DNA of 64,000 nucleotides from Anaerolineales bacterium. GTDB lineage: Bacteria; Chloroflexota; Anaerolineae; Anaerolineales; DRKV01. Location: contig DAOUFY010000090.1 of NCBI GenBank assembly GCA_034429745.1, forward strand, positions 3,693 through 67,692, read 5' to 3'. Numbering within the stretch: position 1 is the stretch's first letter; each line of letters starts with the position of its first letter. This document shows, one piece after another, positions 499-38,845 of this stretch. The position numbers and the translations under genes are program-made. The notes below the pieces were generated by a model. The model saw only the letters and a list, made by a program, of their open reading frames with translations. It had not been told where the DNA came from and did no database searches.

Positions 499-805
499 TC
501 GCAATAAAACCATTTCCTCCTTTATCAAAAGTTGCAAAGAAATGTCTTCAAACGTTTGCCGAAGTGGATCTTAATTATTTGTTTTCATTGGGGCATTAGG
601 CTTTAGTTCTTATTGCTATCACTTAACGATTGCTTTCGATCAACAAAACGTTCTGCTCCAATGCATGGGCTGGAGTACAGGTCAGGTGGTTGGATTTTTT
701 GAATGCCATGTTGAGAGCAAGATAGTCTCATCGGTGGTGCAGGGATCATCCCTTGAATTTTCGGAATATTTATAATGATGTGTAACTAAAAAAGAGGTGA
801 ACCCA

Positions 806-5469: not shown

Positions 5470-5489
5470 GTTAGAGTTTTGGAGAATAG

Positions 5490-6500: not shown

Positions 6501-6506
6501 TAACAG

Positions 6507-7217: not shown

Positions 7218-7240
7218 AGGTCGAGGAAAGCGTTTATATC

Positions 7241-8152: not shown

Positions 8153-8159
8153 AATAATT

Positions 8160-16848: not shown

Positions 16849-18639
16849 ATGAGCCCAAAAAAATGTCTATTTCTTAATACTTATTATCCTAAATTTCTGG
16901 CAGAGTTTTACCGCGAAAATATTCATCTTATCTCGAAGAGTTATCAGGAACAGAAAGCTGTTTTGCAAGCCCAATGTTTTGGTGACAGCGATTTTTACTC
17001 ACATGGGCTTAGACAAGCTGGCTGGGAAGCAGACGAGCTTATTGTTAATGACAATAATCTACAACAGGCATGGGCACGTCAAGTGGGCTTTGGCAGTTAT
17101 CAAAAGGTTACGGATATTGCCCTCGAGCAAATTAGGCGTTTCAAACCGGACGTACTTTACTTTCAGGATTTATCCTTAGCCACAGGCAGCTTTATTGCAG
17201 CGGTGCGCCCTCTTACTTCACTCATTGTGGGTCAAATTGCTTCTCCTATTCCTGCAGGCATTGACTTGCGCAGTTTTGACATACTTATTTCATCGTTTCC
17301 CCATTATGTTGAAGAATTTCGCCGCTTGGGCATAACCGCTTACTATCAACCTTTAGCCTTTGATGAACGCATTTTGGAACGTGTATCTTCTTCTCATCGA
17401 AAACATTTATTGACCTTTGTAGGCGGCCTATCAGCTGCCCATAGTGAACGCACAGAATTCTTAGAGAAGATTGCCCAACAGCTGCCGATAGATTTTTGGG
17501 GATATGGAGTGGAGTTGCTGCCACAGGAATCGGCATTGAGAAAGAATTACCATGGGGAAGCTTGGGGAATTCGGATGTTTGAGATATTGGCTCAATCATA
17601 TATAACATTAAACTTCCATATCAATGTTGCGGGAAACTATGCGAATAATATGCGTTTGTATGAGGCAAGCGGATGTGGGGCACTACTGATAACGGATTAT
17701 AAAGATAACCTCAACGAGTTATTCACCATTGGCAAGGAGGTTGTTGCCTATCGTTCGGTGGATGAAGCAATTTCATTGGTGAAGTATTATCTTCGCTATG
17801 TTCGGGAAGGAGAAGTAATTGCTCAAGCTGGACAACAGCGTACACTGCGTGAGCACACCTATACAAAACGAATGGAACAAACAGCAGAAATACTTGAACG
17901 TCATCTGCGCTATCAACACGAAAAACAATATTTTGGTCCGGTGGATTTATCCAAAATATCTTATGGTCATACACCAATTGCTAAAACGGCGATTACACCC
18001 CAAATGACAACGGCGTGGCAGAGTGAACTAATTCCCGCTAGGCAACGCGCTTTGGTGCGGCAAGAATTGGAGCAAATGCTGCATGGCAATCCTCCTGTGG
18101 TCTATCGGGTGCTGGCAGAACTCTTACGTCCTTATGTTACCAATAGTATGTCTATCCTGGAAATAGGCTGCAGCAGCGGTTATTATTATGAAGTATTGTC
18201 TTATCTTTTGAATAAAAGGCTGAATTATCATGGCGTGGACTATTCAACGGCATTGATAAAAATGGCGAAGGATTACTATCCACAAGAAGCATTTACGGTT
18301 GCAGATGGTTCTCGCTTGCCATATCAGAATGGAGCTTTTCCTCTAGTGATCTCCGGCGGCATATTACTTCATGTGCCTAACTACCCCGATCATATTGCTG
18401 ATACAGTGCGGGTGGCGAGCCGCTATGTTGCAGTTCATCGTACGCCAATTTGCCGCAGGAGAGAGACTCAATACATAAAAAAGTTCGCTTATGGGGTCGA
18501 AACCGTTGAACTGCGATTTAACGAGCAGGAATTGTTGGGAGAGTTTTACAAGCATGCACTCAAGCTGATTTCTGCAATCACATACTATAGTGATGAGGAC
18601 AAAGATGAATATGAAGCTTCGTACTTGTTCAGCAGGTAA
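16849..18639 (+). CDS. Fusion of a CgeB/DUF3880-like glycosyltransferase domain and a class I SAM-dependent methyltransferase
   Basis: The N-terminal 350 aa contain RLYEASGCGALLITDYKDNLNELF..GKEVVAY, which is CgeB-like GT-B C-terminal sequence. The C-terminal domain has SAM motif I (ILEIGCSSGYY, nt 18154-18180) and GVDYS...FPLVISGGILLHV. Confidence 0.7.
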   Translation: MSPKKCLFLNTYYPKFLAEFYRENIHLISKSYQEQKAVLQAQCFGDSDFYSHGLRQAGWEADELIVNDNNLQQAWARQVGFGSYQKVTDIALEQIRRFKPDVLYFQDLSLATGSFIAAVRPLTSLIVGQIASPIPAGIDLRSFDILISSFPHYVEEFRRLGITAYYQPLAFDERILERVSSSHRKHLLTFVGGLSAAHSERTEFLEKIAQQLPIDFWGYGVELLPQESALRKNYHGEAWGIRMFEILAQSYITLNFHINVAGNYANNMRLYEASGCGALLITDYKDNLNELFTIGKEVVAYRSVDEAISLVKYYLRYVREGEVIAQAGQQRTLREHTYTKRMEQTAEILERHLRYQHEKQYFGPVDLSKISYGHTPIAKTAITPQMTTAWQSELIPARQRALVRQELEQMLHGNPPVVYRVLAELLRPYVTNSMSILEIGCSSGYYYEVLSYLLNKRLNYHGVDYSTALIKMAKDYYPQEAFTVADGSRLPYQNGAFPLVISGGILLHVPNYPDHIADTVRVASRYVAVHRTPICRRRETQYIKKFAYGVETVELRFNEQELLGEFYKHALKLISAITYYSDEDKDEYEASYLFSR

Positions 18640-18643
18640 TGCG

Positions 18644-20602: not shown

Positions 20603-21421
20603 ATGGTGTATGCTTTGCTATGCGCTATAATGAAAGACGAGCACCCTGAATACGTTCAGGAATGGATTGATTATCATTTGGCTATTGGTTTTGATGCCAT
20701 TCTCATTTACGATAATGGGAGTTTGCCGCCTATCTCAGATTGCATTCCTCATCATCCAGCGGTAAATATTATTCCAGCACCAGGGTTAAAAATGCAAATA
20801 CCAGCTTATAATCACTGCCTAAAGCATGCCAAAGAGAACCATTGGGCGCGATGGATTGGTTTTATTGATGCGGATGAGTTCCTGGTACCAATGCAGAAGA
20901 ATGATATTCGAGAAGTGCTGGAAGAATACGAGGCGTTTGGTGGTTTGAGTGCAAATTGGGCAGTGTTTGGGCCTAATGGACATCGTCAGCGACCTGCTAT
21001 ACCTCAGTTATATGCTTATACTAAGCGTTTTGATCCACATGCTGAGTTTGCAGAAGTTAGACGGTGGTGTGGTCATGTGAAGTGTATTGTTAATCCACGT
21101 TTAGTAAAAGCAGCAATAAATGCACATTCTTTTGAATTTGAAGACAATAAATTTTGTGTTGATGAACATTTTCATCCAATTCATAAGCCTATTAGGGAAG
21201 AAATAACATATGACGTGCTGCGCGTTAATCATTACTGGACGCGGTCTCTTGAAGATCTTAAGGAAAAAATGATGAAAACGCGGGCTGATAGTGGTGTTCT
21301 TCGGAATAGTTCCGCAATAGAAGAGTATGAACGATTCATGGAGCTTTGTACTGTTGACGATAACAAAATAATTGAGGTATGGGAGCAAGTTAAACCGCGA
21401 CTTAACAAGGAAAGAATATGA
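20603..21421 (+). CDS. Glycosyltransferase family 92 / GT2-like (DUF23-type) protein
   Basis: AIMKDEHPEYVQEWIDYHLAIGFDAILIYDN and the DxD-like FIDADEF are typical of this GT-A family. Confidence 0.6.
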   Translation: MVYALLCAIMKDEHPEYVQEWIDYHLAIGFDAILIYDNGSLPPISDCIPHHPAVNIIPAPGLKMQIPAYNHCLKHAKENHWARWIGFIDADEFLVPMQKNDIREVLEEYEAFGGLSANWAVFGPNGHRQRPAIPQLYAYTKRFDPHAEFAEVRRWCGHVKCIVNPRLVKAAINAHSFEFEDNKFCVDEHFHPIHKPIREEITYDVLRVNHYWTRSLEDLKEKMMKTRADSGVLRNSSAIEEYERFMELCTVDDNKIIEVWEQVKPRLNKERI

Positions 21422-22437
21422 AAAGAATGCAAGATGTACTAGAAATATTCCGCTCCAAAAAAGTTTTAATTACCGGTGGGCTTGGTTTTATTGGATCCAA
21501 TTTAGCCATCCGCTTAGCATCTGTGGGTGCTCAGCTGACTTTGGTGGATAGCCTGATCCCAGAATATGGGGGAAATTTGTTTAACATTGAGCCCATTAAG
21601 CATGTGGTGCGTGTGAATATTTCGGATGTACGAGATGAACATGCAATGAAATACTTGGTTCAAGGGCAAGATGTTTTGTTCAATTTAGCGGGGCAAACTA
21701 GTCATCTTGATTCTATGCAGAACCCATATCCGGATTTGGAAATCAACGCGCGGGCTCAGCTTTCAATTTTAGAGGCATGCCGGCGATATAACCCGCAAAT
21801 AAAAATCATTTTTGCTGGAACTCGTCAGGTATATGGGAAACCTCAATATTTGCCAGTGGATGAACGGCATCCTGTTGCGCCGGTAGATGTGAATGGCATC
21901 AACAAACTAGCCGGAGAATGGTACCATCTTGTTTATCATAAGGTATATGGCATTCGTTCAAGTGTGCTGCGGCTGACCAATACTTATGGACCGCGCATGC
22001 GCGTTAAAGATGCCCGCCAAACATTTTTAGGAATATGGATACGCCGTCTCATTGAAGGGAAACCACTGCTTGTTTTCGGAGAAGGCAAGCAAGTACGCGA
22101 TTTTAACTATGTAGATGATGTCATTGATGCTTTGCTTTTGGCTGCTGTTTCCGACGAAGCAGATGGTGAAATTTTCAACTTAGGCTCAGATGATCCGATA
22201 AATTTATTAGACACTGCTCATTTGCTTGTTCAGGTTTTTGGCGGGGGGAGCGTCGAAATAGTGCCTTTTCCTGAGGATAGAAAGGCAATTGATATTGGTG
22301 ATTACTATGGGGACTATCGCAAACTGCGTGCGCGTTTAGGGTGGAAGCCAGTTACATCGCTTGAAGAAGGCTTAGCTCAAACATGCGCCTATTATAAAAG
22401 GTTTCATCAATTTTACTGGGATAAGGAAGAAGAATAA
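21418..22437 (+). CDS. NAD-dependent epimerase/dehydratase family protein (extended SDR) with an atypical active-site segment
   Basis: It has a Rossmann motif (ITGGLGFIGSNL) and RLTNTYGP. NGINK (nt 21892-21906) appears where YxxxK is expected. It overlaps the upstream gene by ATGA. Confidence 0.75.
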   Translation: MKRMQDVLEIFRSKKVLITGGLGFIGSNLAIRLASVGAQLTLVDSLIPEYGGNLFNIEPIKHVVRVNISDVRDEHAMKYLVQGQDVLFNLAGQTSHLDSMQNPYPDLEINARAQLSILEACRRYNPQIKIIFAGTRQVYGKPQYLPVDERHPVAPVDVNGINKLAGEWYHLVYHKVYGIRSSVLRLTNTYGPRMRVKDARQTFLGIWIRRLIEGKPLLVFGEGKQVRDFNYVDDVIDALLLAAVSDEADGEIFNLGSDDPINLLDTAHLLVQVFGGGSVEIVPFPEDRKAIDIGDYYGDYRKLRARLGWKPVTSLEEGLAQTCAYYKRFHQFYWDKEEE

Positions 22438-25400
22438 TGAAAAAGTATTATTGTACTTATTTCGATCGCAATTATGTGTATAAAGCATTAGCGCTGATCG
22501 ATTCGCTTAGACAACATGAAGAAGACGATTTTGAGTTTTTTGCGATATGTATGGATGAAATTAGCCGTTTGATTTTGGAAAAATTGGCTCTTCCTCATGT
22601 TATTCCTATCCCATTCCACATGATTGAAGAACGAGATGATGCTTTACTTGCAACAAAGAAAGATCGCACGCTCGTTGAGTATTATTGGACAACTACGCCA
22701 ATTAACATTCTATGGCTGCTAGAAAATTACCCTCACATAGATGTATTAACGTATCTTGATGCAGATTTGTATTTTTATTCTTCGCCTGCACCAATATTTG
22801 AGGAATTAGGCGATCAATCCATTCTAATCCACGAGCACAGGTTTTCTCCTAGCATGGCTTATTTAGCCGCAAATAATGGGCGGTACAATGTGGGTTTGCT
22901 TTGTTTTCGCAATGATGAGGTCGGTCTGAAGGCTTTACGCTGGTGGCGCGAGAGAACCATTGAATGGTGCTACTTGCGCTGGGAAGATGGCAAAATGGGT
23001 GACCAAATGTATTTGAATGACTGGCAAACCCGCTTTGAACGAGTGGTTGTATTGCAGCATATTGGTGCTGGCGTAGCTCCTTGGAATCACGATCAATACC
23101 ATTTGAAGGTTGATGGACAACAAAATATTTGGGTAAATGATGTTCCGTTGGTTTTTTTTCATTTTCACTCGTTGACCTTTGTCAGTCCTGGGCTTGTTGT
23201 TGTTGCTCATCCTCATTACCCCATGAACGAAGAAGTATTGCGTTATTGTTATTTCCCTTATATCAAGAAAATATTATCTTTTATCCCTTGTGTGCAGGAG
23301 TTAATACCTGATTTTAACTATGGACTATATACTCAAGATATGTCCTTAAAGGACCGCACATTTTTTGCGCGTTCGCATCTGGCATTAAAGCTTAAACAGG
23401 CCGGCTGTCTGATTTCGCCCTTTTCAATTGATGATGAATGGGATGTTTATCTTGCTCCTCAAGAGCAACAAGTCTTAGATAAGCTTCCTACAGACTCCAT
23501 CCAGAAAGCCCAATCTCAGGAAGATTTGATGCTCTGGCACCCTCAACGAGTGGTGGTTACCCCTAATGATTTACTATTAACCCTGCGAGAACGCGAGATT
23601 CGTTTCTCTATTCGAGTGCTTTATGTGGTAGGTGCTTTTCTGTTTGAAGAACGCGAACTGCTTTTTGAACTATTCCCAAATTTAGAAAAAGTGGTTCTCT
23701 TTGAACCTGTACCAGAAGTATATCAGCAATTACTAATCATTACCAAAAACGACCCGCGAATTGTGGTTTTTCCTTATGCGATCGGTGATACAGATGAACG
23801 GCGGGATTTTTATATCACCAATAATTATCAATCCAGTTCTATTTTGCCATTGGGCAAGCATAGGGAACTGTTCCCACAAGTTGAACATACTCGTACAGTA
23901 ACTGTAGAATGTTACCGTTTAGATAGTGTTATACAGCTTCATCACCTGCCATTGCCAGATATGCTTTTTCTGGATGTTCAAGGAGCTGAATATCAAGTGT
24001 TGGCAGCGCTATCGTCAACATTGCGTCAGCGAATACGTTTGATTTATACTGAAGTGAGTACAGAACCTCTCTATCAAGGTTCAAAACCTTTAGCGGAAGT
24101 TACAGAACTGTTACGCTCCGATTTTCTATTTTTAGGGTATGCTCCAACCCGTCAAGAATTACCTGTCCATGGCAATGCTGTTTATGTTAATCACCGATGT
24201 TTGGAAGAAGTAAAAAGTAAACCGTTGGCTATGGGAGGTGAGGCTAATTATCGTGTCTCTGTTATTGTTTCTGCATATAAATCGGAAGCATTCATGCGCG
24301 AATGTTTGACAGATTTAGTCAACCAAACCATTGCAAATCAATCGGAAATTATTATTGTGGATGCTAATTCACCAGAAAATGAGCGCGCTATTGTAGAGGA
24401 GTTCCAACGTCAATACAAGCAGATCACCTATATCCGTACTGGAGAGAGGATTGGGGTATATGCGGCTTGGAATTTGGCAATAAAGATAGCAAAAGGAAAA
24501 TATATCACGCCATTTAGCACAAATGACCGCTTGCGGAAAGATGCGCATGAGATTTTAGCAAAAGCTTTAGATGAAAACCCACAGGTGATGTTAGTTTATG
24601 GCGATACTTATATGACTGCCATTCCCCATGAAACCTTTGAAAAACACACTCGTATCAGTTCCATGATTTGGCCGCCCTATTCATATGAAGATTTGCTCAT
24701 GAACAACCGTGTGGGACCGCACCCCATGTGGCGTAAAAGTGTACATCAGGAAGTAGGATACTTTGATGAAACTTTTTATGCAATAGGTGATCAAGAATTT
24801 TGGCTGCGGATAGGGGAGCACTTTCCCTTGCTGCATATTCCTGTGTTCACCGGCTTATATTGGACAACGCCGGAAGCTCTTTCGAATAGAGAGGAATATG
24901 CAAAATCAGAATTTATCAAAGCTCGCCAACCATATCAAGCGCGGTATCGAAGTGAGCGCTTAGATCGTTGGCGCAGCGCAGAGGAGAAATTATCTCAAGC
25001 AGCAGCAGCCATTGAACGAAATCATTTGTTAAGAGCTGAAGAGTTGTTGAAAGAAGCAGCAAGTATTGCGCCGGATAATTCGAATGTATTATCTGCGGTA
25101 GGACGTTGGTATTTGGCAATTCAAAAGCCTGATGAAGCAATTTCTTGGTTGAATAAAGCTATTCAGTACGGTCCAGCACGCTGGAATGATCATTTACATC
25201 TGATTGAAGCTCTGATAGCTGTTGGAAATCTTCAAGAAGCTGCCAAAGAAGTCAGTTGGTTAAGAACTTACATACCAATATTTGATGAAGTCAAAAAATT
25301 TGAACATCTTTTATTGAGTATGGGAGTTGAAGTTATGCCAGATCGTGAAATGCCTTATGGAAAACTTGAATCTCAAAGTGAAAAAGAAGAACTTCAAGAA

Positions 25401-28400
25401 AGAGCAAAACAGACATTGCAAAGATTGTTAGAAGCGGAGGATATTCTCCAGGCGTTGGATGAGCACGAGGAGCTGCTGGATGAAGAACTATTGGCTTTAG
25501 TGCGGCGAGATGCAGAAACTGCGCGTCTATCAGGAGAGGGTGATTTAGCCGAAGGATTGGAAGCTCTTGCCGAGACAATTGAAGAACGGCTTAAAGCAAA
25601 GCCTCAAGTTGAGGTGCAAACGCAGCCGAATCAGGGACAAATGCAACCAAAACAGAGAGAGCAGGCGGCAGAGACCCTGCGTCGGCTTTTGGATGCGGAG
25701 GATATTCTGCAGGCGTTGGATGAGCACGAGGAGCTGCTGGATGAGGAACTTCTGGCTTTAGTGCGGCGGGATGCAGAAACTGCGCGTCTATCAGGAGAGG
25801 ATGATTTAGCCGAAGGATTGGAAGCTCTTGCCGAGACAATTGAAGAGCGGCTTAAAGAAAAACTGCAAGTCAAAGTGCAAACGCGGGCAGAAAGGAAGGA
25901 ACCAGCAGCAGAGACACTGCGTCGGCTTTTAGAAGCGGAGGATATTCTGCAGGCGTTGGATGAGTATGAGGAGCTGCTGGATGAGGAACTGCTGGCTTTA
26001 GTGCGGCGGGATGCAGAAGCGGCGCGTCAAGCCGGAGAGGATGATTTAGCCGAAGGATTGGAAGCTTTAGCTGAGACAATTGAAGAACGGTTAAAGAATA
26101 AAATTCCTTCCCAATCAGTATATAACAAATCTTCTTCAACAGGGCAAAACTCACAAATAAAGCATCAACAAAGACAAGCCGGGGAATACATTCCAGCACA
26201 AAACGGCATCCCCGCGGGGTATGTAAAGCAGCGAGCTGTTATTAAGGATGCACTCGTTGATATTGTTATACCGATTTACGGGCAGGGGGAATTATTAAGA
26301 CTTTGTGTAGAGTCGGTGCTTGCAACTACGAAGGATGTGCATTTGATATTAGTTGATGATTGCTCACCTTTGGGAGCTATTGAGGCGATCTTCAATTTGT
26401 GGGAAGGACATCCTCAAATAACCCTTGCCCGAACTGAAGAAAATCAAGGGTTTATCGGCACAACGTGCTTGGGCGCGACATTGGGCAAGGCACCTTATAT
26501 CCTTTTCCTTAACTCAGATACTGAAGCGATCCAAAAAGGTTGGCTTGAAGCATTGCTGCCGCAGGAAGACGACATTGCAATAAGTGGAGCAAAATTGCTT
26601 TACCCTCCTTATACTTCCCCCTACAAAGCTTTTAGAATACAACATGCAGGTGTTGCCCGTAAGGATGATCTGATGCCCTATCATATATTCCATGGTTTAG
26701 AAAGAGATCATCCTAGCGCTAATGTAGCGAGAGATGTTAATGCTGTTACGGGGGCTTGTTTTTTAGTCAGACGATCAATATGGGAAAAACTACATGGTTG
26801 GGATAGAAACTTTGGACGAGGCGTTTATGAAGATGTAGATTTTTGTTGGCAGGTACGTGAACTCGGTTACCGTGTGCGTTATGAACCCAAAGCAGAATTG
26901 TTCCATGCTTCAAGTGCAAGCGAATTCATTTTTAACGAACATTTGCTTTACAATAAAAAGGAAGAGAATCTAAACTATTTACAAAGCAAATGGAAGTACT
27001 TGGAAAGAGATGAGGAGCTCTTTTGGGAAAAGGAAGTGATTGAGCGCTGGAAGAAAGGTAGGAAAGCGCTGAAGAGGGGGGAAGTTTTTAAAGCCCGCGG
27101 TGAATATAAAGAAGCATTCAAAGAAATAAGAAACGCTTATAGAATTGCAGCGGATGATCCTCAGATAGCTTTTGCTTATGGAACGTTGCTGCTAATCAGA
27201 GAAAAATTTTTAGAAGCTGTGGAGATATTTGAAAAAGTTAAGGAGTCACTTCCTTTATCTTCTGAGACTCATTTTAGTTTGTTGGCTGCATATCTTGGGA
27301 CGAAAAATTTATCAAAAGCAGAGGAAGAATATTTGCTAGTTGCTGAACTCTTCCCATATCATCCTCAGATAGAGGAAATAAAAGAAAAGATTGAAGAGTT
27401 GAAAAAAAGTGCTGGGTATTCCTCTGAGAAAGGTAGTATTGTAGGTGGGCATACGAAAGAAGCAGTTGGCATTGTGCTTAAGCAAGCAAAACCTGGTTCA
27501 TATAAAGTGGATATTATTATTCCCATTTATGGACAGGTTAAGTTAACTTATGATTGTCTGATTTCTGTGTTGGAAACAACACAAGATGTTCATGTTATTA
27601 TGGTGGATGATTGTTCGCCAGGCAAAGAAATTGAAGATCTTTTTGCTCGGATAGATACTCCAAATGTTACTCTTGCGCGTACCATAAAAAATATGGGTTT
27701 CTTGGGTACAAGTAAGTTTGGAGCTAGTTTAGGCAAATCACCTTTTATTCTTCACTTGAATTCCGATATTGTTGCTATCCAAAGCGGCTGGCTGGAGCAC
27801 CTGTTACCTAAATCCGAAGATGTGGCAGTGTGCGGTGCAAAGTTGTTGTACCCCCCCAAATCGCCGCGCTTGCTAGCAAATCGCATTCAGCATGCTGGTG
27901 TATGTATGCGCGATGAGGTTGATTGTTTGCGAATTTTTCACCCCTACCAAGGATATGAGGCAGATTTTCCGGCGGCTAATGTACCACGTTATGTTAACGC
28001 AGTTACAGGGGGGTGCTTGTTGACTCGCCGCACTGTTTGGGAAGAATTGGGAGGCTGGGATGAACACTTGGGGCGCGGCGTATTTGAAGATGTGGATTAC
28101 TGCTGGCGGGTGCGCAAGCGCGGTTACCGTATTGCATATGTACCGCAAGCGGTTCTTTACCATTACGAAAGTCAAAGCGTTTCAGAAAATGGTGAGCATT
28201 CTTTGCATAAGTACAGTACACAAAATTTGAATTACCTCTTATCTCGATATGGCAGAGAACAATGTGACGAGGAGCTTTATTTTGAAAGCGAATTGATAAA
28301 GCGCTGGATGAAAGGAAGACACCTTGCTGCTGATGCTAGAAAGGCTTTTCTAAAAGGAGATTCGAAAACAGCCCATTCCTTATTCACCCAAGCCTTAAAG

Positions 28401-28667
28401 TTGGCTGCCGATGATGTGGTTACGCTTGTTCGATACAACGAGTTTTTGCATGGAGAAAAACAATATTTGACTTTAATTGAAAGCATTCCAAAACTATTAG
28501 CGCTATCTCCATTGGAATGGCAGACGCGTGTACAATGGATTGACACGTTGATGAAATTGAACAAACTCGAGCAGGCTGCTGAAGAGTTAGAATTGTTATG
28601 GGAGGTATTTCCAAAATCACCGCTCTTGGTTGGGTTGAAAAAAGAGTTGGAAAAAGCAATGCAATGA
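22437..28667 (+). CDS. Giant 2076-aa multi-domain glycan-assembly protein: N-terminal GT-A-like domain, FkbM-type methyltransferase, GT2-TPR, triple acidic repeat, GT2-TPR, GT2-TPR
   Basis: The N-terminal domain has YCTYFDRNY...YLDADLYFY. The FkbM-like segment spans about nt 23610-24210 (VVLFEPVPEVYQQL...FPYAIGD...FLDVQGAEYQVL). GT2 #1 starts at about 24249 (VSVIVSAYKSE...IIIVDANSPENE). GT2 #2 starts at 26256 (VDIVIPIYGQ...LILVDDCSP). GT2 #3 starts at 27508 (VDIIIPIYGQ...VIMVDDCSP). TPR-like helical repeats follow each GT2 domain. Confidence 0.85.
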   Translation: MKKYYCTYFDRNYVYKALALIDSLRQHEEDDFEFFAICMDEISRLILEKLALPHVIPIPFHMIEERDDALLATKKDRTLVEYYWTTTPINILWLLENYPHIDVLTYLDADLYFYSSPAPIFEELGDQSILIHEHRFSPSMAYLAANNGRYNVGLLCFRNDEVGLKALRWWRERTIEWCYLRWEDGKMGDQMYLNDWQTRFERVVVLQHIGAGVAPWNHDQYHLKVDGQQNIWVNDVPLVFFHFHSLTFVSPGLVVVAHPHYPMNEEVLRYCYFPYIKKILSFIPCVQELIPDFNYGLYTQDMSLKDRTFFARSHLALKLKQAGCLISPFSIDDEWDVYLAPQEQQVLDKLPTDSIQKAQSQEDLMLWHPQRVVVTPNDLLLTLREREIRFSIRVLYVVGAFLFEERELLFELFPNLEKVVLFEPVPEVYQQLLIITKNDPRIVVFPYAIGDTDERRDFYITNNYQSSSILPLGKHRELFPQVEHTRTVTVECYRLDSVIQLHHLPLPDMLFLDVQGAEYQVLAALSSTLRQRIRLIYTEVSTEPLYQGSKPLAEVTELLRSDFLFLGYAPTRQELPVHGNAVYVNHRCLEEVKSKPLAMGGEANYRVSVIVSAYKSEAFMRECLTDLVNQTIANQSEIIIVDANSPENERAIVEEFQRQYKQITYIRTGERIGVYAAWNLAIKIAKGKYITPFSTNDRLRKDAHEILAKALDENPQVMLVYGDTYMTAIPHETFEKHTRISSMIWPPYSYEDLLMNNRVGPHPMWRKSVHQEVGYFDETFYAIGDQEFWLRIGEHFPLLHIPVFTGLYWTTPEALSNREEYAKSEFIKARQPYQARYRSERLDRWRSAEEKLSQAAAAIERNHLLRAEELLKEAASIAPDNSNVLSAVGRWYLAIQKPDEAISWLNKAIQYGPARWNDHLHLIEALIAVGNLQEAAKEVSWLRTYIPIFDEVKKFEHLLLSMGVEVMPDREMPYGKLESQSEKEELQERAKQTLQRLLEAEDILQALDEHEELLDEELLALVRRDAETARLSGEGDLAEGLEALAETIEERLKAKPQVEVQTQPNQGQMQPKQREQAAETLRRLLDAEDILQALDEHEELLDEELLALVRRDAETARLSGEDDLAEGLEALAETIEERLKEKLQVKVQTRAERKEPAAETLRRLLEAEDILQALDEYEELLDEELLALVRRDAEAARQAGEDDLAEGLEALAETIEERLKNKIPSQSVYNKSSSTGQNSQIKHQQRQAGEYIPAQNGIPAGYVKQRAVIKDALVDIVIPIYGQGELLRLCVESVLATTKDVHLILVDDCSPLGAIEAIFNLWEGHPQITLARTEENQGFIGTTCLGATLGKAPYILFLNSDTEAIQKGWLEALLPQEDDIAISGAKLLYPPYTSPYKAFRIQHAGVARKDDLMPYHIFHGLERDHPSANVARDVNAVTGACFLVRRSIWEKLHGWDRNFGRGVYEDVDFCWQVRELGYRVRYEPKAELFHASSASEFIFNEHLLYNKKEENLNYLQSKWKYLERDEELFWEKEVIERWKKGRKALKRGEVFKARGEYKEAFKEIRNAYRIAADDPQIAFAYGTLLLIREKFLEAVEIFEKVKESLPLSSETHFSLLAAYLGTKNLSKAEEEYLLVAELFPYHPQIEEIKEKIEELKKSAGYSSEKGSIVGGHTKEAVGIVLKQAKPGSYKVDIIIPIYGQVKLTYDCLISVLETTQDVHVIMVDDCSPGKEIEDLFARIDTPNVTLARTIKNMGFLGTSKFGASLGKSPFILHLNSDIVAIQSGWLEHLLPKSEDVAVCGAKLLYPPKSPRLLANRIQHAGVCMRDEVDCLRIFHPYQGYEADFPAANVPRYVNAVTGGCLLTRRTVWEELGGWDEHLGRGVFEDVDYCWRVRKRGYRIAYVPQAVLYHYESQSVSENGEHSLHKYSTQNLNYLLSRYGREQCDEELYFESELIKRWMKGRHLAADARKAFLKGDSKTAHSLFTQALKLAADDVVTLVRYNEFLHGEKQYLTLIESIPKLLALSPLEWQTRVQWIDTLMKLNKLEQAAEELELLWEVFPKSPLLVGLKKELEKAMQ
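25410..26096 (+). repeat. Three near-identical in-frame tandem repeats (about 189-nt core; unit starts about 25410, 25668, 25908) inside the giant CDS
   Basis: The core peptide (A)ETLRRLLEAEDILQALDEHEELLDEELLALVRRDAETARLSGEDDLAEGLEALAETIEERLK occurs three times with only a few substitutions. Long stretches of the DNA are identical. The linkers are 70 and 51 nt. Confidence 0.95.
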
Positions 28668-28689: not shown

Positions 28690-29847
28690 ATGCCAACTCC
28701 TACGCTTTCTTTGTGCATGATTGTTAAGAATGAAGAGGCAAATCTCAAGCGCTGTCTTGATTCAGTGATTGGGGTAGTGGATGAATTGATCATCGTTGAC
28801 ACTGGCTCTACTGACCGCACGCCGGAAATTGCTCGGGCTTATCAAGCCAAGCTTTATCATCACGAATGGAATAATGATTTTTCTGAAGCGCGCAACGTAA
28901 GCTTAGAAAAAGCAACAGGCGAGTGGATTTTAGTGTTGGATGGAGATGAAATGCTAACTCCCGAATCACGTCAGCATCTCAAACCAATTTTGGCAACTAC
29001 AGCGGCGGAGGGAGTATTGTTTACGGTGCGCAACTTTAACCCGCCGGATGCTTTGGCAGAATATAACGATTCTCCGCAAATTCGCGCCTTCCGGAATCGT
29101 CCGCAGTATCGTTATCAGCAAAGAGTACATAATCAGATTGGAATAGCTATTGCAGCCCATGGGGGGGTAATAGCAAATCATATACAGGAGCTGATGATCT
29201 GGCACTATGGGTATTTGCAACGCACCGTTCAAGGCAATCAGGATCGGCTTGAGCGTAGTCTGCGGATGCTCGAAGCCGCTGTGAACGAGGATCCGCAGAA
29301 TATTTACTTAAATGCCAAACTAGCTGTAATTTATTTCCACTTAGGAGAGCATTCGCTGGCATATACCTATGCCTATCGAGTGCTGACTGAGATGGACCAC
29401 AGTCAACTAACGATTGAAAATCTACGCGATATTCTGCGGATTGTTTCCAATATTTCTATTCAACGCGGTCATTATGATTTAGCTGTCCAGACTGCTCAAG
29501 CTTGTTTGGATCTATCTCGAGATGATACTGATGCGCTGCTCTCGGCGCTGGATTTGTTGGGAGTGGCTTATGGGGCACAGGCAGAGCTTTTTATAAAACG
29601 CGCCGTTGCCATGGAGCATCAATTGGTAAAGATGGAAGAGGCGCACGCCAAAGCAGCCCTCAACGAGCAGCGAATGGAGTGGCTAACGCAAGGAAAAGCA
29701 GCAGCCACTCATTCCGAAAATGCTTTTGAAACTTTGCTTGCGCACCCTCAACTGCGCATCTCTCATAAAGAACGGGTGCAACATTTTCTAGATCAATCGC
29801 GTACTCTTCTTCACTATATAGAGACGCGGATGGCTTGGCAGCCGTGA
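28690..29847 (+). CDS. GT2-family glycosyltransferase with C-terminal TPR-like domain
   Basis: LSLCMIVKNEEANLKRCLDSV...IIVDTGSTDRT...ARN...VLDGDE is the classic GT2 (SpsA-like) N-terminus. The helical repeat region follows (YLNAKLAVIYFHLGEHSLAYTYAYRVL). Confidence 0.8.
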   Translation: MPTPTLSLCMIVKNEEANLKRCLDSVIGVVDELIIVDTGSTDRTPEIARAYQAKLYHHEWNNDFSEARNVSLEKATGEWILVLDGDEMLTPESRQHLKPILATTAAEGVLFTVRNFNPPDALAEYNDSPQIRAFRNRPQYRYQQRVHNQIGIAIAAHGGVIANHIQELMIWHYGYLQRTVQGNQDRLERSLRMLEAAVNEDPQNIYLNAKLAVIYFHLGEHSLAYTYAYRVLTEMDHSQLTIENLRDILRIVSNISIQRGHYDLAVQTAQACLDLSRDDTDALLSALDLLGVAYGAQAELFIKRAVAMEHQLVKMEEAHAKAALNEQRMEWLTQGKAAATHSENAFETLLAHPQLRISHKERVQHFLDQSRTLLHYIETRMAWQP

Positions 29848-34396: not shown

Positions 34397-35299
34397 ATGG
34401 CAAGTGTAGATGTAACTCGTGTAGCGGGAAATATTGGTGCTCTCAATGCGTTGAACTCATTGAACTATGTGAATGGTGAGCTGGCATTGCACCAAACTCG
34501 ACTGGCGACGGGCAAGCGCATTAACTATGCGTATGAGGACCCGGCGGGATTGAACTTAGCGACGACCTTTGATGTACGTCGGCAAGGGCTGCAGGTAGCG
34601 TTGAATAGCATTGGAGACTCAAAGAACATGCTAGCGACAGCAGAAGGTGGGTTGCGCAAGATTCAAGACATATTGGTGAAGATGAAGAACAAGGCAATGG
34701 AAGCCATTGGCGACACCATCGGTCAAAGCGAGCGCGATGCTATTGTGGCTCAGCTTAAGGACTATGCCAATGAAATTAACAACATTGCTGGTCAAACTCA
34801 ATGGAATGGGCGCCACCTTATCAGTGGGTCGGGCACGAGCGGAGCCGGCGATGGAACAACAACCGAGGCTTTATCCTTCTTGGTGGACTCGTCTGGAGGC
34901 AGTGTTGGGTTTAGCTTCACTAGCAATCGCGGTTTCGTAGTCGTTGGTTCATCTGGTACAAGTGCAGAGGGTTTAGGCTTCAAGACTTCAGATTTATCAG
35001 CAGCAAGCGCTGGTGGAACTTCAGCAAAAGCAGTAGCTGATCAAATTGACTCGGCGCTCAATCGTGTCAAGCAAGGTGTTCGCGAAGTTGGTTCCTTCAT
35101 GGCAAGACTGACCTTCAAAGAGGATTCTTTAACGGTTCAATATACCAACACAGAAGCAGCCTACAACCGTATTATGAATGCCAACATGGCAGAAGAACAA
35201 GTGAACGCCAGCAAGTACGCTATCCTGCAGCAAACGGCTACTGCAATGCTCTCGCAAGCAAATGTGGCACCGCAGTTTATCCTCTCGCTGTTTAGATAA
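34397..35299 (+). CDS. fliC: Flagellin (short, 300 aa)
   Basis: The N-terminal domain is LATGKRINYAYEDPAGLNLATTF and the C-terminal domain is NRIMNANMAEEQVNASKYAILQQTATAMLSQANVAPQFILSLFR. The central region is short and Ser/Thr/Gly-rich. Confidence 0.9.
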   Translation: MASVDVTRVAGNIGALNALNSLNYVNGELALHQTRLATGKRINYAYEDPAGLNLATTFDVRRQGLQVALNSIGDSKNMLATAEGGLRKIQDILVKMKNKAMEAIGDTIGQSERDAIVAQLKDYANEINNIAGQTQWNGRHLISGSGTSGAGDGTTTEALSFLVDSSGGSVGFSFTSNRGFVVVGSSGTSAEGLGFKTSDLSAASAGGTSAKAVADQIDSALNRVKQGVREVGSFMARLTFKEDSLTVQYTNTEAAYNRIMNANMAEEQVNASKYAILQQTATAMLSQANVAPQFILSLFR

Positions 35300-35324
35300 G
35301 TCTTATCCAAGTTGTAGTTCAGCA

Positions 35325-35358
35325 TATAGGCGCAATTTTCTTTTGCGCCTATATTTTT
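35325..35358 (+). terminator. Rho-independent terminator after flagellin 1
   Basis: The stem TATAGGCGC (35325-35333) pairs with GCGCCTATA (35345-35353) and is followed by TTTTT. Confidence 0.75.
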
Positions 35359-35469: not shown

Positions 35470-35488
35470 GGATAATTAAGTACTTTAA

Positions 35489-35526: not shown

Positions 35527-36402
35527 ATGGCAGGAAATGTAGATGTAACAAGAATTGCTGGAAATATTGGAGCTCTCAATGCGTTGAATTCATTAGCATA
35601 TGTCAACCAAAATTTGGCAATGCATCAAACGCGGTTGGCAACAGGCAAGCGCATCAATTATGCCTATGAAGATCCGGCGGGCTTAAACTTGGCAACCACT
35701 TTTGATGTTCGACGTCAAGGGTTGGAAGTCGTGCTCAAAGCCATGGGAGATGCGAACAACTTGCTTTCAAATATGGAAGGCGGGCTGCGTAAAATTCAAG
35801 ATATTCTTGTAAAAATGCGTGCCAAAACCCTTGAAGCTATTGGAGATACGATTGGATCTGCTGAAAGGGAAGCGGTTAGCGCTCAACTTAAGGATTACGC
35901 GGCGGAAATTGATCAAATTGTCTCCCAGACGCAATGGAATAATAAGCTGTTGCTTAGTGGGTCAGCCGGCTGGGGAGCAGATCAGTTGTACTTCTTAGTA
36001 GATTCGGACGGTGGCAGTGTAGGCTTTAAGTTCTCTACTAGTGCTGGTGGAAGTGCAGGCTTTAATGTAGCTTATTTGAACAGTCAGCTTACAGGAGCTT
36101 CGGTTGCCGTTTCGGATAGCGCAATGGCAAGGGCTTACATGGATGTGATTGAAGATGCCCTCAATAAAGTACGGCGCGGCGTTATGGATGTAGGATCGTT
36201 CCAAGCCCGGTTGATGTTCAAAGAGGAAACTCTTAATGTTCAATACACCAACACAGAATCGGCCTACAACCGTATTATGAATGCCAACATGGCACAGGAA
36301 CAAGTAGAAGCAAGCAAGTTTGCTATCCTGCAACAGACTGCTACAGCAATGCTTGCACAAGCTAATGTGGCACCACAGTTTATCCTGTCTCTATTCCGCT
36401 AA
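35527..36402 (+). CDS. fliC: Flagellin paralog (291 aa)
   Basis: Its N- and C-terminal domains are the same as in flagellin 1, including a 32-nt identical run (gcctacaaccgtattatgaatgccaacatggca). The central segment is divergent. Confidence 0.9.
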   Translation: MAGNVDVTRIAGNIGALNALNSLAYVNQNLAMHQTRLATGKRINYAYEDPAGLNLATTFDVRRQGLEVVLKAMGDANNLLSNMEGGLRKIQDILVKMRAKTLEAIGDTIGSAEREAVSAQLKDYAAEIDQIVSQTQWNNKLLLSGSAGWGADQLYFLVDSDGGSVGFKFSTSAGGSAGFNVAYLNSQLTGASVAVSDSAMARAYMDVIEDALNKVRRGVMDVGSFQARLMFKEETLNVQYTNTESAYNRIMNANMAQEQVEASKFAILQQTATAMLAQANVAPQFILSLFR

Positions 36403-36536: not shown

Positions 36537-36589
36537 TAACATTGTGAAGTCTTTGATAGAAGTTGCTGAATGTTTTCTGGAGGTGCAAA

Positions 36590-38434: not shown

Positions 38435-38488
38435 TCATTAGATAATTATTGCTTGGATAAGCAAATAAGAAGAGTGAGGAGGTGTGCT

Positions 38489-38845
38489 ATGACAGATCAA
38501 ATGAATGTAAACCGAATTGGAGGGGTTACAAATCCCCAGCAGGAGATAAACTTTCAGGTGCTTCAAGCACAACAGAACGCTGCAGCGGCGGCAGCTACGA
38601 TTAAGAACGTTGAACAGCCCGATAAAAAAGCAGAGGCTAAAGAGCAGTCTGAAGAAGGGCGCAAGCAAGAGCAAAAAGCATTTAAGCAGCTTAATGCTGT
38701 CGAGATGCAGTTTGAAATTGACCGCGAAACAAATGAGATTACATTGAAGATCATGGATAAAGAGACTAAAGAGATCATTCGCACCATCCCTGAACGAGCA
38801 TGGAGTGATCTCAGCGTGGCTGAGTTATTCAAGATTACAGCCTAG
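38489..38845 (+). CDS. flaG: FlaG-family flagellar protein
   Basis: The C-terminal motif LNAVEMQFEIDRETNEITLKIMDKETKEIIRTIP is typical of FlaG. GAGGAGG precedes the ATG at 38489. Confidence 0.75.
   Translation: MTDQMNVNRIGGVTNPQQEINFQVLQAQQNAAAAAATIKNVEQPDKKAEAKEQSEEGRKQEQKAFKQLNAVEMQFEIDRETNEITLKIMDKETKEIIRTIPERAWSDLSVAELFKITA

What the first reader, a model, noticed from the sequence alone, without database searches (positions are those of the whole stretch)
22437..28667. A 2076-aa single-polypeptide glycan assembly line with three GT2-TPR modules
One uninterrupted ORF strings together the following domains:
- a GT-A-like N-terminal domain (nt 22437 to about 23340);
- an FkbM-type methyltransferase (about 23610-24210);
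- GT2 #1 (about 24249-24900) with a TPR region;
- a triple acidic helical repeat (25410-26096);
- GT2 #2 (from 26256) with TPR;
- GT2 #3 (from 27508) with TPR.

GT2 #2 and #3 are clear paralogs (VDIVIPIYGQ..LILVDDCSP..LNSDTEAIQKGWLEALLP..GAKLLYPP versus VDIIIPIYGQ..VIMVDDCSP..LNSDIVAIQSGWLEHLLP..GAKLLYPP).

The downstream stand-alone gene (28690-29847) is a fourth GT2-TPR unit. This suggests repeated module duplication followed by gene fusion.

TPR domains attached to glycosyltransferases are used for protein-substrate recognition in OGT and GmaR. A fused multi-GT enzyme would therefore be a processive protein-glycan builder. I do not recognise this architecture as a described enzyme.
Basis: partly seen in the sequence, partly recalled or inferred. 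Interest (0 to 1): 0.82.

Follow-up and report, generated by a model that had tools for sequence, protein, structure and literature searches.

The report
Giant flagellin-glycosylating multi-enzyme fusion protein
The 2076-residue gene is real and fuses four sugar-adding enzymes and one methyl-adding enzyme into one protein, but it belongs to a widespread, unstudied family encoded next to flagellin genes, so it most likely decorates the flagellar filament with a sugar chain and is not an unprecedented machine.

Summary
ORF 22437-28667 is uninterrupted and is recovered in four full-length forms in public assemblies. It encodes a GT8-like GT-A domain, an FkbM methyltransferase, three GT2 domains each with a TPR tail, and three acidic helical repeats.

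Three corrections apply:
- The downstream 385-aa gene is not a duplicated fourth module. It is a GmaR/SunS-type enzyme, GmaR being the Listeria flagellin O-GlcNAc transferase.
- The repeat copy number, 2 or 3, differs among near-identical assemblies.
- The architecture is not unique: more than 120 relatives of 1200-3400 aa exist, mostly without a functional name; the named ones are called 'FkbM family methyltransferase' or 'glycosyltransferase'.

The gene sits in a flagellin glycosylation island. A nonulosonic-acid and deoxy-sugar pathway lies upstream. Two flagellins, FliD and FlaG lie 5.7 kb downstream. Relatives sharing the N-domain/FkbM/GT2 core lie beside flagellin in 12 of 14 loci from four phyla.

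Best explanation: a soluble cytoplasmic enzyme that extends and methylates an O-linked flagellin glycan started by the GmaR-like neighbour. This parallels Clostridioides difficile type B GT1/GT2. No member has been tested.

Verdict: a new fused variant of a known kind, of moderate interest.

The parts
22437..28667 (+). Whole 2076-aa ORF (multi-glycosyltransferase/methyltransferase fusion)
   Evidence: full-length forms in independent assemblies
22437..23471 (+). N-domain (aa 1-345): GT8-like retaining-type GT-A fold with invariant D108xD110. The family has no Pfam model of its own.
   Evidence: AlphaFold2 pLDDT 95.6; Foldseek hits to LARGE1, glycogenin, XXYLT1, LgtC, GlyE; invariant columns; more than 2000 homologues
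23682..24116 (+). FkbM-type SAM methyltransferase (aa 416-560)
   Evidence: PF05050 62.6 bits (cutoff 22.7); TIGR01444 73.3 bits (cutoff 37.7)
24258..24842 (+). GT2 domain #1 (aa 608-802), SpsA/chondroitin-synthase-like
24948..25316 (+). TPR tail 1 (aa ~838-960)
   Evidence: TPR_19 32.5 bits, above cutoff; MamA TPR matches
25392..26186 (+). Three tandem acidic helical units (~62-aa core, 87-aa period). Copy number is 2 or 3 among near-identical assemblies.
26256..27026 (+). GT2 domain #2 (aa ~1274-1530), ppGalNAc-T/chondroitin-synthase-like
26994..27386 (+). TPR tail 2 (aa ~1520-1650)
   Evidence: designed TPR proteins, E 8.6e-12; NCBIfam MamA, 2.7e-11
27507..28256 (+). GT2 domain #3 (aa ~1691-1940), paralogue of #2 (46% identity)
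28269..28664 (+). Helical tail 3 (aa ~1945-2076), TPR-like through homology to tail 2
   Evidence: 30% identity over 128 aa, E 1.3e-15; no direct PDB hit
28690..29847 (+). Separate 385-aa GmaR/SunS-type GT2 with a helical tail; candidate initiating flagellin O-glycosyltransferase
   Evidence: PDB GmaR 22ao, E 2.8e-33; SunS, E 2.7e-18; TPR Pfam hits below cutoff
21418..22437 (+). NDP-sugar 4,6-dehydratase/epimerase. Its stop codon overlaps the giant ORF's start codon. It is a conserved upstream partner in related loci.
16849..18639 (+). Glyco_trans_1_2 (GT-B-like) + SAM methyltransferase protein, a conserved partner in related flagellin loci
20603..21421 (+). GT92/Glyco_tranf_2_4-like glycosyltransferase
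797..11104 (+). Nonulosonic-acid and amino-deoxy-sugar biosynthesis genes: cytidylyltransferase, PseC/LegC-like aminotransferase, dehydratase, GNAT, NeuB/PseI-like synthase, formyltransferase, deacetylase, AsnB-like enzyme, WbuX
34397..35299 (+). Flagellin 1 (300 aa) with a Ser/Thr/Gly-rich central segment; presumed acceptor
35527..36402 (+). Flagellin 2 (291 aa, 67% identical to flagellin 1)
36563..38845 (+). FliD filament cap and FlaG

Best explanation
The ORF encodes a soluble, cytoplasmic, five-enzyme fusion of a flagellin glycosylation island in an uncultured Anaerolineae-like (Chloroflexota) bacterium.

Proposed mechanism, all of it inferred:
1. Nucleotide sugars are made by the upstream genes.
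2. The neighbouring GmaR-like GT2 (28690-29847) puts the first sugar on Ser/Thr residues of the Ser/Thr/Gly-rich central segment of the two flagellins, before export.
3. The giant protein extends that primer. One retaining GT8-like domain and three inverting GT2 domains each add a sugar (or a few).
4. The FkbM domain O-methylates a sugar, possibly as a cap.
5. The TPR tails hold the flagellin, or partner enzymes, so that successive steps occur without release.
6. The acidic helical units are a family-specific tail element, serving as a docking/oligomerisation element or a spacer.

Shown here: the domain identities, the soluble nature of the protein, the conserved flagellin neighbourhood and the family distribution.
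Inferred: the acceptor, the order of steps, the sugars, and the roles of the TPR tails and the acidic units.
For: Gene context in the window:
- Two flagellins, FliD and FlaG lie downstream.
- A nonulosonic-acid/deoxy-sugar pathway lies upstream.
- All island genes are on the same strand, and the giant ORF's start overlaps the stop of the dehydratase gene.

Conserved neighbourhood:
- Relatives in Nitrospira sp. KM1, Iodobacter ciconiae and two metagenome contigs all sit just upstream of flagellin-FlaG-FliD-FliS. They are preceded by the same Glyco_trans_1_2+methyltransferase and dehydratase genes, and in three of the four also by a DegT aminotransferase gene.
- In species-representative genomes, loci with the N-domain+FkbM+GT2#1 core have a flagellin in the flank in 12 of 14 cases. 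N-domain-only loci with full flanks have one in 0 of 25 (Fisher p = 2e-8).
- Proteins carrying the acidic unit lie in flagellar or chemotaxis loci. One further locus shares the same gene block, but its contig ends before any flagellar gene.

Not an envelope-polysaccharide machine: the giant protein and the island genes have no membrane-spanning segments. There is no flippase, polymerase, ABC-2 exporter or polyprenyl-phosphate transferase.

The neighbour's GT domain matches GmaR, the Listeria flagellin O-GlcNAc transferase (E 2.8e-33; PMC9638930).

Experimental precedents:
- C. difficile type B: GT1 adds GlcNAc to flagellin. GT2, a GT2 domain fused to a methyltransferase domain, adds two rhamnoses and is proposed to methylate them (PMC5207246).
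- The FlmG TPR domain binds flagellins (PMC7591256).
- P. syringae Fgt1 transfers rhamnose to flagellin Ser, and VioT (1173 aa) is assigned as the modified-viosamine transferase (PMC3927599).

The flagellin central segments are Ser/Thr-rich.
Against: - No member of the family has been tested, and glycosylation of these flagellins has not been observed.
- Three unrelated genes (a DUF1810 gene, a C26 peptidase gene and a divergently transcribed ABC-uptake operon) lie between the island and the flagellin genes.
- 2 of 14 core-bearing loci, and most N+GT2 loci, have no flagellin within the flank. Most flagellin-positive loci are Nitrospira, so they are not independent observations.
- The N-domain alone is common in non-flagellar contexts.
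- TPR tail 3 is supported only by homology to tail 2.
- Nothing shows sequential action, processivity, or which domain acts first.
Confidence: 0.65

Rival explanations
1. A polymerase-terminator with a ruler, acting on flagellin. The two C-terminal GT2 modules co-polymerise a repeating glycan on the flagellin primer. The N-terminal methyltransferase block caps the chain. The helical repeats set the distance between the two blocks and hence the chain length, as in WbdD or K. pneumoniae O7 ORF6.
For: - The layout resembles K. pneumoniae O7 ORF6, which has an N-terminal methyltransferase, a central coiled coil and two C-terminal GT2 modules (PMC11231755). It also resembles WsaE, which has a methyltransferase plus two rhamnosyltransferase domains and a methyl cap that terminates the chain (PMC2943079).
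- The helical repeat lies exactly between the methyltransferase-bearing half and the paralogous GT2 pair.
- Repeat number is 2 or 3 among near-identical assemblies.
- In C. difficile, methylation was suggested to block further extension (PMC5207246).
Against: - In most relatives the unit is a single ~60-aa copy at the extreme C-terminus (25 of 38 long proteins). In P0266 the units follow the third module instead of separating the halves. Neither fits a general ruler role.
- Each unit has a conserved Gly-containing break, which suggests a helix-turn-helix and not one long coiled coil.
- The AlphaFold2 model of the repeats is of low confidence (pTM 0.29).
- The 2-versus-3 difference could be an assembly collapse.
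Confidence: 0.1
2. An enzyme of envelope polysaccharide synthesis (O-antigen, S-layer glycan or exopolysaccharide) that builds a lipid-linked glycan and only happens to be encoded near flagellar genes.
For: - GT2, FkbM and GT8-like domains are typical of polysaccharide clusters.
- The N-domain alone occurs in many non-flagellar loci.
- The closest multi-domain enzymes with solved mechanisms (WbdA/WbdD, WsaE, O7 ORF6, WbbM) act on lipid-linked glycans (PMC11231755, PMC2943079).
Against: - The first 30 kb of the window, which holds the island, has no Wzm/Wzt, Wzx/Wzy, oligosaccharyltransferase or initiating phosphoglycosyltransferase, and the island has no membrane proteins.
- Flagellin adjacency of the core is conserved across Nitrospirota, Proteobacteria, Acidobacteriota and Chloroflexota.
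- A GmaR-like protein glycosyltransferase is the immediate neighbour.
Confidence: 0.1
3. The enzyme glycosylates another protein or peptide, such as a pilin, the FliD cap, a hook protein or a ribosomal peptide, and not flagellin.
For: - The neighbour also resembles SunS-type peptide S-glycosyltransferases.
- A B12-radical SAM enzyme with weak RiPP-methyltransferase similarity is in the island.
- TPR tails are generic protein-binding modules.
Against: - No precursor peptide, pilin or RiPP machinery was seen in the island.
- The match to GmaR (E 2.8e-33) is much stronger than the match to SunS (E 2.7e-18).
- The conserved partner across phyla is flagellin itself.
Confidence: 0.07
4. The long ORF is an assembly chimera, or several genes wrongly joined.
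For: - It contains a 261-nt tandem repeat, at which several public assemblies break.
- One low-quality 3.5-kb contig carries short fragments.
Against: - Four full-length versions (2076, 1996, 1989 and 1989 aa) in separate assemblies keep one frame and differ essentially only in repeat number.
- The same module order is found in distant relatives at 42-49% identity.
Confidence: 0.02

Closest known systems
Clostridioides difficile type B flagellin system (GT1 = CD0240-like, GT2 = GT2 domain + methyltransferase, GT3), PMC5207246
   Same: - An initiating GmaR/CD0240-type GT2 sits next to a fused glycosyltransferase-methyltransferase that extends the flagellin O-glycan and is proposed to methylate it.
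- All enzymes are cytoplasmic, and the genes lie beside the flagellin gene.
   Different: - The enzyme here has five catalytic domains, not two.
- It uses an FkbM-type methyltransferase, not the PF08241 type.
- It has TPR tails, a GT8-like domain and acidic helical units.
GmaR (Listeria monocytogenes flagellin O-GlcNAc transferase; PDB 22ao; PMC9638930)
   Same: The downstream 385-aa gene matches the GmaR glycosyltransferase domain (E 2.8e-33) and, like GmaR, has a helical tail after the GT2 domain.
   Different: - The giant ORF's own GT2 modules are not GmaR-like at BLAST level.
- The neighbour lacks GmaR's linker and antirepressor domains (385 versus 637 aa).
FlmG (Caulobacter flagellin pseudaminyltransferase), PMC7591256
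   Same: It is a modular TPR + glycosyltransferase enzyme. Its TPR part was shown experimentally to bind flagellins, and it acts in the cytoplasm.
   Different: - FlmG has an N-terminal TPR domain and a GT-B catalytic domain. Here the domains are GT-A with C-terminal TPR tails.
- FlmG transfers a single sugar.
Klebsiella pneumoniae O7 ORF6, WbdD/WbdA and Geobacillus WsaE (ABC-transporter-dependent glycan polymerase/terminators), PMC11231755, PMC3482155, PMC2943079
   Same: They are large soluble multi-module proteins that combine a methyltransferase with GT2 modules. ORF6 and WbdD also have a helical spacer. The methyl group acts as a chain cap.
   Different: - Those enzymes act on lipid-linked glycans and are encoded with Wzm/Wzt exporters. 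Neither feature is present here.
- Here the helical element is a repeated ~62-aa unit that is usually C-terminal in relatives, not a continuous coiled coil.
Pseudomonas syringae/aeruginosa flagellin glycosyltransferases Fgt1, Fgt2 and VioT/OrfN (VioT is 1173 aa), PMC3927599
   Same: - They include at least one large (>1000 aa) flagellin glycosyltransferase (VioT).
- They build a short methylated O-glycan containing a 4-amino-4,6-dideoxyhexose.
- They have dehydratase and aminotransferase partners, like those conserved next to this family.
   Different: - The domain composition of the Pseudomonas enzymes was not compared here.
- Their methyltransferase (VioM) is a separate protein.

Membership tests
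Glycosyltransferase family 2 (Pfam PF00535 / PF13641), three copies | Profile match above the curated threshold at each of three positions | tested here: met
   PF00535: 160 bits, three stretches. PF13641: 91.5 bits, three stretches. PDB relatives: chondroitin synthase, SpsA, ppGalNAc-transferases. Module 3 alone gives no PDB sequence hit, but it is 46% identical to module 2.
Glycosyltransferase family 2 | Conserved acidic motifs (nucleotide/metal-binding Asp residues and the ED catalytic region) are retained | tested here: inconclusive
   - VDD, SD and ED motifs are present in modules 2 and 3 at equivalent positions and match the consensus of relatives.
- In module 1, D642, D697 and D785 are invariant or nearly so across 36 homologues.
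- No structural or biochemical check was made.
FkbM methyltransferase (PF05050 / TIGR01444) | Profile match above the curated thresholds | tested here: met
   62.6 bits versus cutoff 22.7. 73.3 bits versus cutoff 37.7. The DVQGAE motif is invariant in homologues.
Glycosyltransferase family 8 (PF01501) | Sequence profile match above the gathering threshold | tested here: not met
   16.4 bits versus cutoff 24.3. No PDB sequence hit at E<=1.
Glycosyltransferase family 8 (fold level) | GT-A fold resembling GT8 enzymes, with a DxD motif | tested here: met
   AlphaFold2 pLDDT 95.6. Foldseek top hits are LARGE1, glycogenin, XXYLT1, LgtC and GlyE, with probability 1.0 and TM-scores 0.4-0.6. D108 and D110 are invariant in 66 sequences. 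The domain works like a GT8 enzyme; it is not filed as a Pfam GT8 member.
TPR repeat tails | TPR profile or structure-sequence match after each GT2 domain | tested here: met
   - Tail 1: TPR_19, 32.5 bits, above cutoff 25.
- Tail 2: designed TPR proteins, E 8.6e-12.
- Tail 3: only through homology to tail 2, E 1.3e-15, so this one is weaker.
Flagellin glycosylation island enzyme (functional class) | Encoded next to flagellin and sugar-nucleotide genes, with this neighbourhood conserved in relatives | tested here: met
   Window. Relatives. 12 of 14 core-bearing loci versus 0 of 25 controls.
Flagellin glycosylation island enzyme (functional class) | Flagellin is actually glycosylated, and the modification depends on the gene | not testable with these tools
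   Needs mass spectrometry and genetics.
ABC-transporter-dependent glycan polymerase/terminator (WbdD, O7 ORF6, WsaE type) | Cluster encodes a Wzm/Wzt exporter and a lipid-carrier initiating transferase | tested here: not met
   None is present in the first 30 kb of the window, which holds the island. The only ABC systems in the window are binding-protein-dependent uptake types. The island has no membrane proteins.
ABC-transporter-dependent glycan polymerase/terminator | A continuous coiled-coil ruler lies between the terminator and polymerase modules | tested here: inconclusive
   A helical repeat lies between the two halves. However, the units have a conserved turn, the linkers are disordered, pTM is 0.29, and the units are C-terminal in most relatives.
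GmaR-type flagellin O-GlcNAc transferase (applies to the neighbour gene 28690-29847, not to the giant ORF) | GT domain homologous to GmaR; TPR domain; antirepressor domain | tested here: inconclusive
   - GT domain: met (E 2.8e-33).
- TPR: only sub-threshold Pfam hits.
- Antirepressor domain: absent, judged from length (385 versus 637 aa; PMC9638930).
   All catalytic domains here are GT-A (GT2 or GT8-like) with C-terminal TPR tails.

The most novel reading that the evidence does not exclude
The protein is a protein-directed counterpart of the O-antigen polymerase/terminator machines. The paralogous GT2 pair polymerises a repeating glycan directly on flagellin. The N-terminal methyltransferase block caps the chain. 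The acidic helical units act as a length-setting spacer or docking element. On this reading the copy number (2 or 3 among near-identical assemblies) tunes the glycan length on the filament.
Probability: 0.1. Interest if true: 0.8.

Novelty: new variant of a known kind. Interest (0 to 1): 0.45.

Why it matters
Flagellin glycosylation is known mainly from a few pathogens, where separate, mostly single-function enzymes do the work.

This locus shows that environmental bacteria (Anaerolineae-like Chloroflexota, Nitrospira, Methylomonas, Iodobacter, Acidobacteriota) carry a large, untested family of 1400-3400-aa fusion enzymes beside their flagellin genes. Up to five catalytic domains are strung together with TPR tails.

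If the function is confirmed, the family would offer three things:
- a compact, soluble system for building defined O-glycans on a protein;
- a test of whether fusing domains channels intermediates between them;
- two unannotated building blocks: a GT8-like domain with more than 2000 homologues but no Pfam model, and a rare ~62-aa acidic helical unit found almost only in multi-glycosyltransferase proteins.

Cultured carriers (Nitrospira sp. KM1, Iodobacter ciconiae) make the question experimentally accessible.

Tried and rejected
- BLASTP of the downstream 385-aa gene against every module gave no hit at E<0.01. The 'fourth duplicated unit' idea was rejected.
- A PDB sequence search with the N-domain found nothing at E<=1. 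The domain was resolved only by structure prediction plus Foldseek.
- A PDB sequence search with module 3 alone found nothing.
- Pfam and NCBIfam give nothing for the acidic unit apart from a spurious sub-threshold COG2_N hit.
- Single-sequence AlphaFold2 on the repeats gave only a low-confidence all-helical model (pLDDT 70, pTM 0.29). It cannot distinguish hairpins from a coiled coil.
- The 748-aa neighbour (14114-16360) has no Pfam, NCBIfam or PDB match. A Maf-like assignment could not be made.
- The promoter/terminator scan of 16-35 kb found terminator-like sites at chance level and promoter-like sites only modestly above the shuffles. It gave no operon boundaries.
- Literature searches for 'flagellin glycosylation' plus FkbM, Nitrospira or fgt1/TPR found general island surveys but no paper on this protein family.
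- Context look-ups for P0259 and P0262 were uninformative: the P0259 contig was too short and P0262 was not on record.

Full report

Yes. ORF 22437..28667 (+) is uninterrupted and encodes 2076 aa. Its ATG overlaps the stop codon of the upstream dehydratase gene. Its first residues (MKKYYCTYFDRNY) match the consensus N-terminus of homologues, so the start codon is right.

- a weak GT8 signal at aa 9-121;
- an FkbM methyltransferase at aa 416-560, above both curated cutoffs;
- three GT2 matches at about aa 608-802, 1274-1530 and 1691-1940;
- a TPR_19 match above cutoff at aa 860-913.

PDB sequence searches confirm the tails. Tail 2 matches designed consensus TPR proteins (E 8.6e-12). Tail 1 matches the TPR protein MamA. 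Tail 3 has no direct hit but is homologous to tail 2 (30% identity over 128 aa, E 1.3e-15).

Tandem Repeats Finder reports the acidic repeat at 25434-26098: period 261 nt, 2.6 copies, 86% matches.

The GT2#2 and GT2#3 modules are clear paralogues (46% identity over 384 aa, E 3e-118). GT2#1 is only distantly related to them (19%).

**2. Is it an assembly artefact?**

No. The exact 2076-aa protein is on record. Its cluster also holds full-length forms of 1996 and 1989 (x2) aa. These differ essentially only by lacking one 80-87-aa repeat. Fragments of 983, 1018 and 1096 aa start or end inside or just before the repeat, which is typical of contig breaks at repeats. Contig L001, from another metagenome, is 99.6-99.9% identical over 26 kb and keeps the single frame. 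So the single ORF is solid. The repeat number (2 or 3) is either polymorphic or sensitive to assembly.

**3. The N-terminal domain**

Sequence methods fail on it (Pfam below cutoff; no PDB hit). A 66-sequence alignment gave an AlphaFold2 model with mean pLDDT 95.6.

Foldseek against the PDB returns GT8-type retaining GT-A enzymes: LARGE1, glycogenin, XXYLT1, LgtC and GlyE, plus the bifunctional O-antigen enzyme WbbM. E-values run from 4e-10 to 1e-7 and TM-scores from 0.4 to 0.6. D108xD110, H134 and H242 are invariant, and H132 nearly so.

The protein therefore has four GT-A domains (one retaining-type, three inverting-type) and one methyltransferase.

The N-domain family is large, with more than 2000 homologues. 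It occurs alone (~345 aa), with a TPR tail (~480 aa) or with FkbM (~585 aa).

**4. Gene context**

- The window comes from an Anaerolineae-like Chloroflexota bacterium. The ThrRS gene's best named hits are Chloroflexota/Anaerolineales at 72-78% identity.
- Upstream (797-11104) lie the genes for a nonulosonic acid and amino-deoxy sugars: cytidylyltransferase, PseC/LegC-like aminotransferase, dehydratases, GNAT, NeuB/PseI-like synthase, formyltransferase, and WbuX above its cutoff.
- Next come a fatty-acyl-AMP ligase/carrier/acyltransferase protein, an unknown 748-aa protein, a Glyco_trans_1_2+methyltransferase protein, a B12-radical SAM enzyme, a GT92-like enzyme and a dehydratase. Then comes the giant ORF.
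- Downstream lie a 385-aa GT2 gene, three unrelated genes plus an uptake ABC operon, and then two flagellins (300 and 291 aa, 67% identical), FliD and FlaG.
- The flagellins' central segments are rich in Ser/Thr/Gly.
- Neither the giant protein nor any other island gene has a convincing membrane-spanning segment.
- No exporter, flippase, polymerase or polyprenyl-phosphate transferase is present.

**5. The downstream gene is not a fourth copy**

It has no BLASTP similarity to any module. Its GT domain matches GmaR, the Listeria flagellin O-GlcNAc transferase (PDB 22ao, E 2.8e-33). The next-best match is the peptide S-glycosyltransferase SunS (E 2.7e-18). It is the natural candidate for the initiating enzyme.

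**6. Relatives**

A search of 5.8 billion proteins found 127 hits at E<=1e-10.
- About 40 are ~1400-aa proteins. Those that carry a name are Nitrospira proteins called 'FkbM family methyltransferase'. They share aa 1-~830 (N-domain, FkbM, GT2#1) at about 50% identity and add one further GT2-TPR module.
- The others are 1500-3400 aa long, with extra GT1/GT4 and methyltransferase domains.

In every context examined, the gene sits just upstream of flagellin-FlaG-FliD-FliS (FliD before FlaG in one locus). These are Nitrospira sp. KM1, Iodobacter ciconiae and two metagenome contigs. In each it is preceded by the same Glyco_trans_1_2+methyltransferase and dehydratase genes, and in three of the four also by a DegT aminotransferase gene.

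A scan of one genome per species found at least 582 loci with a relative, mostly of the N-domain alone. I classified the 80 loci retrieved:
- loci with the N+FkbM+GT2#1 core have a flagellin in the flank in 12 of 14 cases;
- N-domain-only loci have one in 0 of 49 cases (0 of 25 counting only loci with full flanks);
- Fisher p = 2e-8.

The positive loci include Nitrospirota, Methylomonas and Acidobacteriota. They are dominated by Nitrospira, so they are not independent observations.

**7. The acidic unit**

Each unit has a ~62-aa core with the consensus ETLxxLLxAxDxLxALxxHxxLLDxxLLxLVRxxAxxARxxGExxLAEGLxxLAxxI.

It is a real and rare domain. An exhaustive HMMER search of 1.84 billion representatives found only 87 proteins at E<=1e-3. 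In 25 of the 38 that are at least 800 aa long, the best copy ends within 20 residues of the C-terminus. Of 30 such proteins scanned, 27 have GT2 domains, 20 have GT1/GT4 domains, 15 have Glyco_trans_1_2 domains and 4 have the Maf-type MptE-like domain.

Their loci tell the same story:
- P0007 lies before flagellin.
- P0261 lies before FlbD-MotAB-FliLMNOP.
- P0263 lies after a CheA-CheX chemotaxis cluster.
- P0266 shares the same downstream gene block, but its contig ends before any flagellar gene.

P0007 carries one internal copy and four diverged C-terminal copies. In the window the three copies are about 78-94% identical, which points to recent amplification.

The single-sequence AlphaFold2 model is all-helical with disordered Q/P-rich linkers, but its confidence is low (pLDDT 70, pTM 0.29).

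**8. Evolution**

- GT2#2 and GT2#3 are as similar to modules of other unit-bearing giant proteins (41-50%) as to each other. They are only ~35% identical to the second GT2 of the Nitrospira proteins.
- P0259 contains the same tandem GT2b-GT2c block (43% identity over 792 aa).
- P0266 has GT2#1-TPR, GT2#2-TPR and GT2#3-TPR in the same order (42-49% identity), with the units at the C-terminus.

The protein is therefore a mosaic. A Nitrospira-like N-domain/FkbM/GT2#1 core is joined to Anaerolineae-type GT2-TPR modules. The pattern is one of ancient paralogy and module shuffling, not of recent duplications.

**9. Mechanism**

The best-supported model is cytoplasmic O-glycosylation of flagellin before export:
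1. The GmaR-like neighbour primes Ser/Thr residues.
2. The giant protein's four GT domains extend the chain, using the locally encoded nucleotide sugars.
3. FkbM methylates a sugar.
4. The TPR tails tether the substrate or partner enzymes.

This mirrors the experimentally dissected C. difficile type B pathway. There, GT1 adds GlcNAc. GT2, a GT2 domain fused to a methyltransferase domain, adds two rhamnoses and is proposed to methylate them. GT3 adds the terminal sugar (PMC5207246). Two other precedents fit: FlmG's TPR domain binds flagellins (PMC7591256), and P. syringae Fgt1 and VioT are flagellin glycosyltransferases (PMC3927599).

A rival mechanism, and the most novel reading, borrows from the O-antigen polymerase/terminators, where a methyltransferase and GT2 modules are separated by a helical ruler. 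Examples are K. pneumoniae O7 ORF6, WbdD and WsaE (PMC11231755, PMC3482155, PMC2943079). The layout here is suggestive. However, the usual C-terminal position of the unit in relatives, and the lack of exporter genes, argue against a simple transfer of that model.

**10. Verdict**

This is a five-enzyme fusion of a flagellin glycosylation island. It belongs to a sizeable but experimentally untouched family. It is a new fused variant of a known kind of system, not a new kind. Interest is moderate. The main value lies in the family-level picture, the two unannotated domains, and the existence of cultured organisms in which the function can be tested.

Noticed in passing
window 14114-16360 (+): A 748-aa protein in the middle of the glycosylation island has no Pfam, NCBIfam or PDB sequence match. 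It is conserved in the near-identical contig L001. It may be an unrecognised glycosylation component, for example the nonulosonate transferase.
   Followed up: partly
window 25392-26186; also L006 11021-11596 and 15278-16153, L087, L088, L089: The ~62-aa acidic helical unit is a rare domain: 87 hits in 1.84 billion representative proteins. It is found almost only in multi-glycosyltransferase proteins, usually as the extreme C-terminal tail. No Pfam model covers it.
   Followed up: yes
window 22437-23471; proteins P0139-P0258: The GT8-like N-domain defines a family of more than 2000 proteins with no Pfam or NCBIfam model of its own. Members are stand-alone, fused to TPR repeats, or fused to FkbM. 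Many are named 'hypothetical' or 'TPR repeat protein'.
   Followed up: partly
window 11427-14102 (+): One protein combines a fatty-acyl-AMP ligase, a phosphopantetheine carrier domain and a hexapeptide acyltransferase, inside the sugar-biosynthesis cluster. This suggests N-acylation of an amino sugar with an activated acyl group.
   Followed up: no
window 18590-20593 (+): A B12-binding radical SAM enzyme lies inside the island. It has weak similarity to C- and P-methyltransferases and might C-methylate a sugar.
   Followed up: no
window 40808-41130 (+): A tRNA-Val(GAC) gene is followed by a T-box leader (107 bits, above the gathering score) directly upstream of the threonyl-tRNA synthetase gene (41166-42962).
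   Followed up: no
L006 16358-19953; L088 15846-19516; L089 13250-16887: Related loci share a conserved block after the giant glycosyltransferase gene: a ~555-aa TPR protein, a ~370-aa GT1_4 enzyme and a ~270-aa FGE-sulfatase-like protein. Flagellin or flagellar motor genes follow the block. A formylglycine-generating-enzyme-like protein beside flagellin is unexplained.
   Followed up: no
L088 1-15619: Four consecutive giant glycosyltransferase genes (>1267, 1054, 1084 and 1872 aa) lie upstream of FlbD-MotAB-FliLMNOP. This would be an unfused multi-protein version of the same kind of assembly line.
   Followed up: no
window 34397-38845 and 51977-54091: By its ThrRS gene the organism is Anaerolineae-like (Chloroflexota). 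Yet the window carries two flagellins with an unusual N-terminus (MASVDVTRVAGNIGALNAL...), FliD, FlaG and a PilJ-type chemoreceptor. As far as I recall (not checked here), cultured Anaerolineae are mostly described as non-motile.
   Followed up: partly
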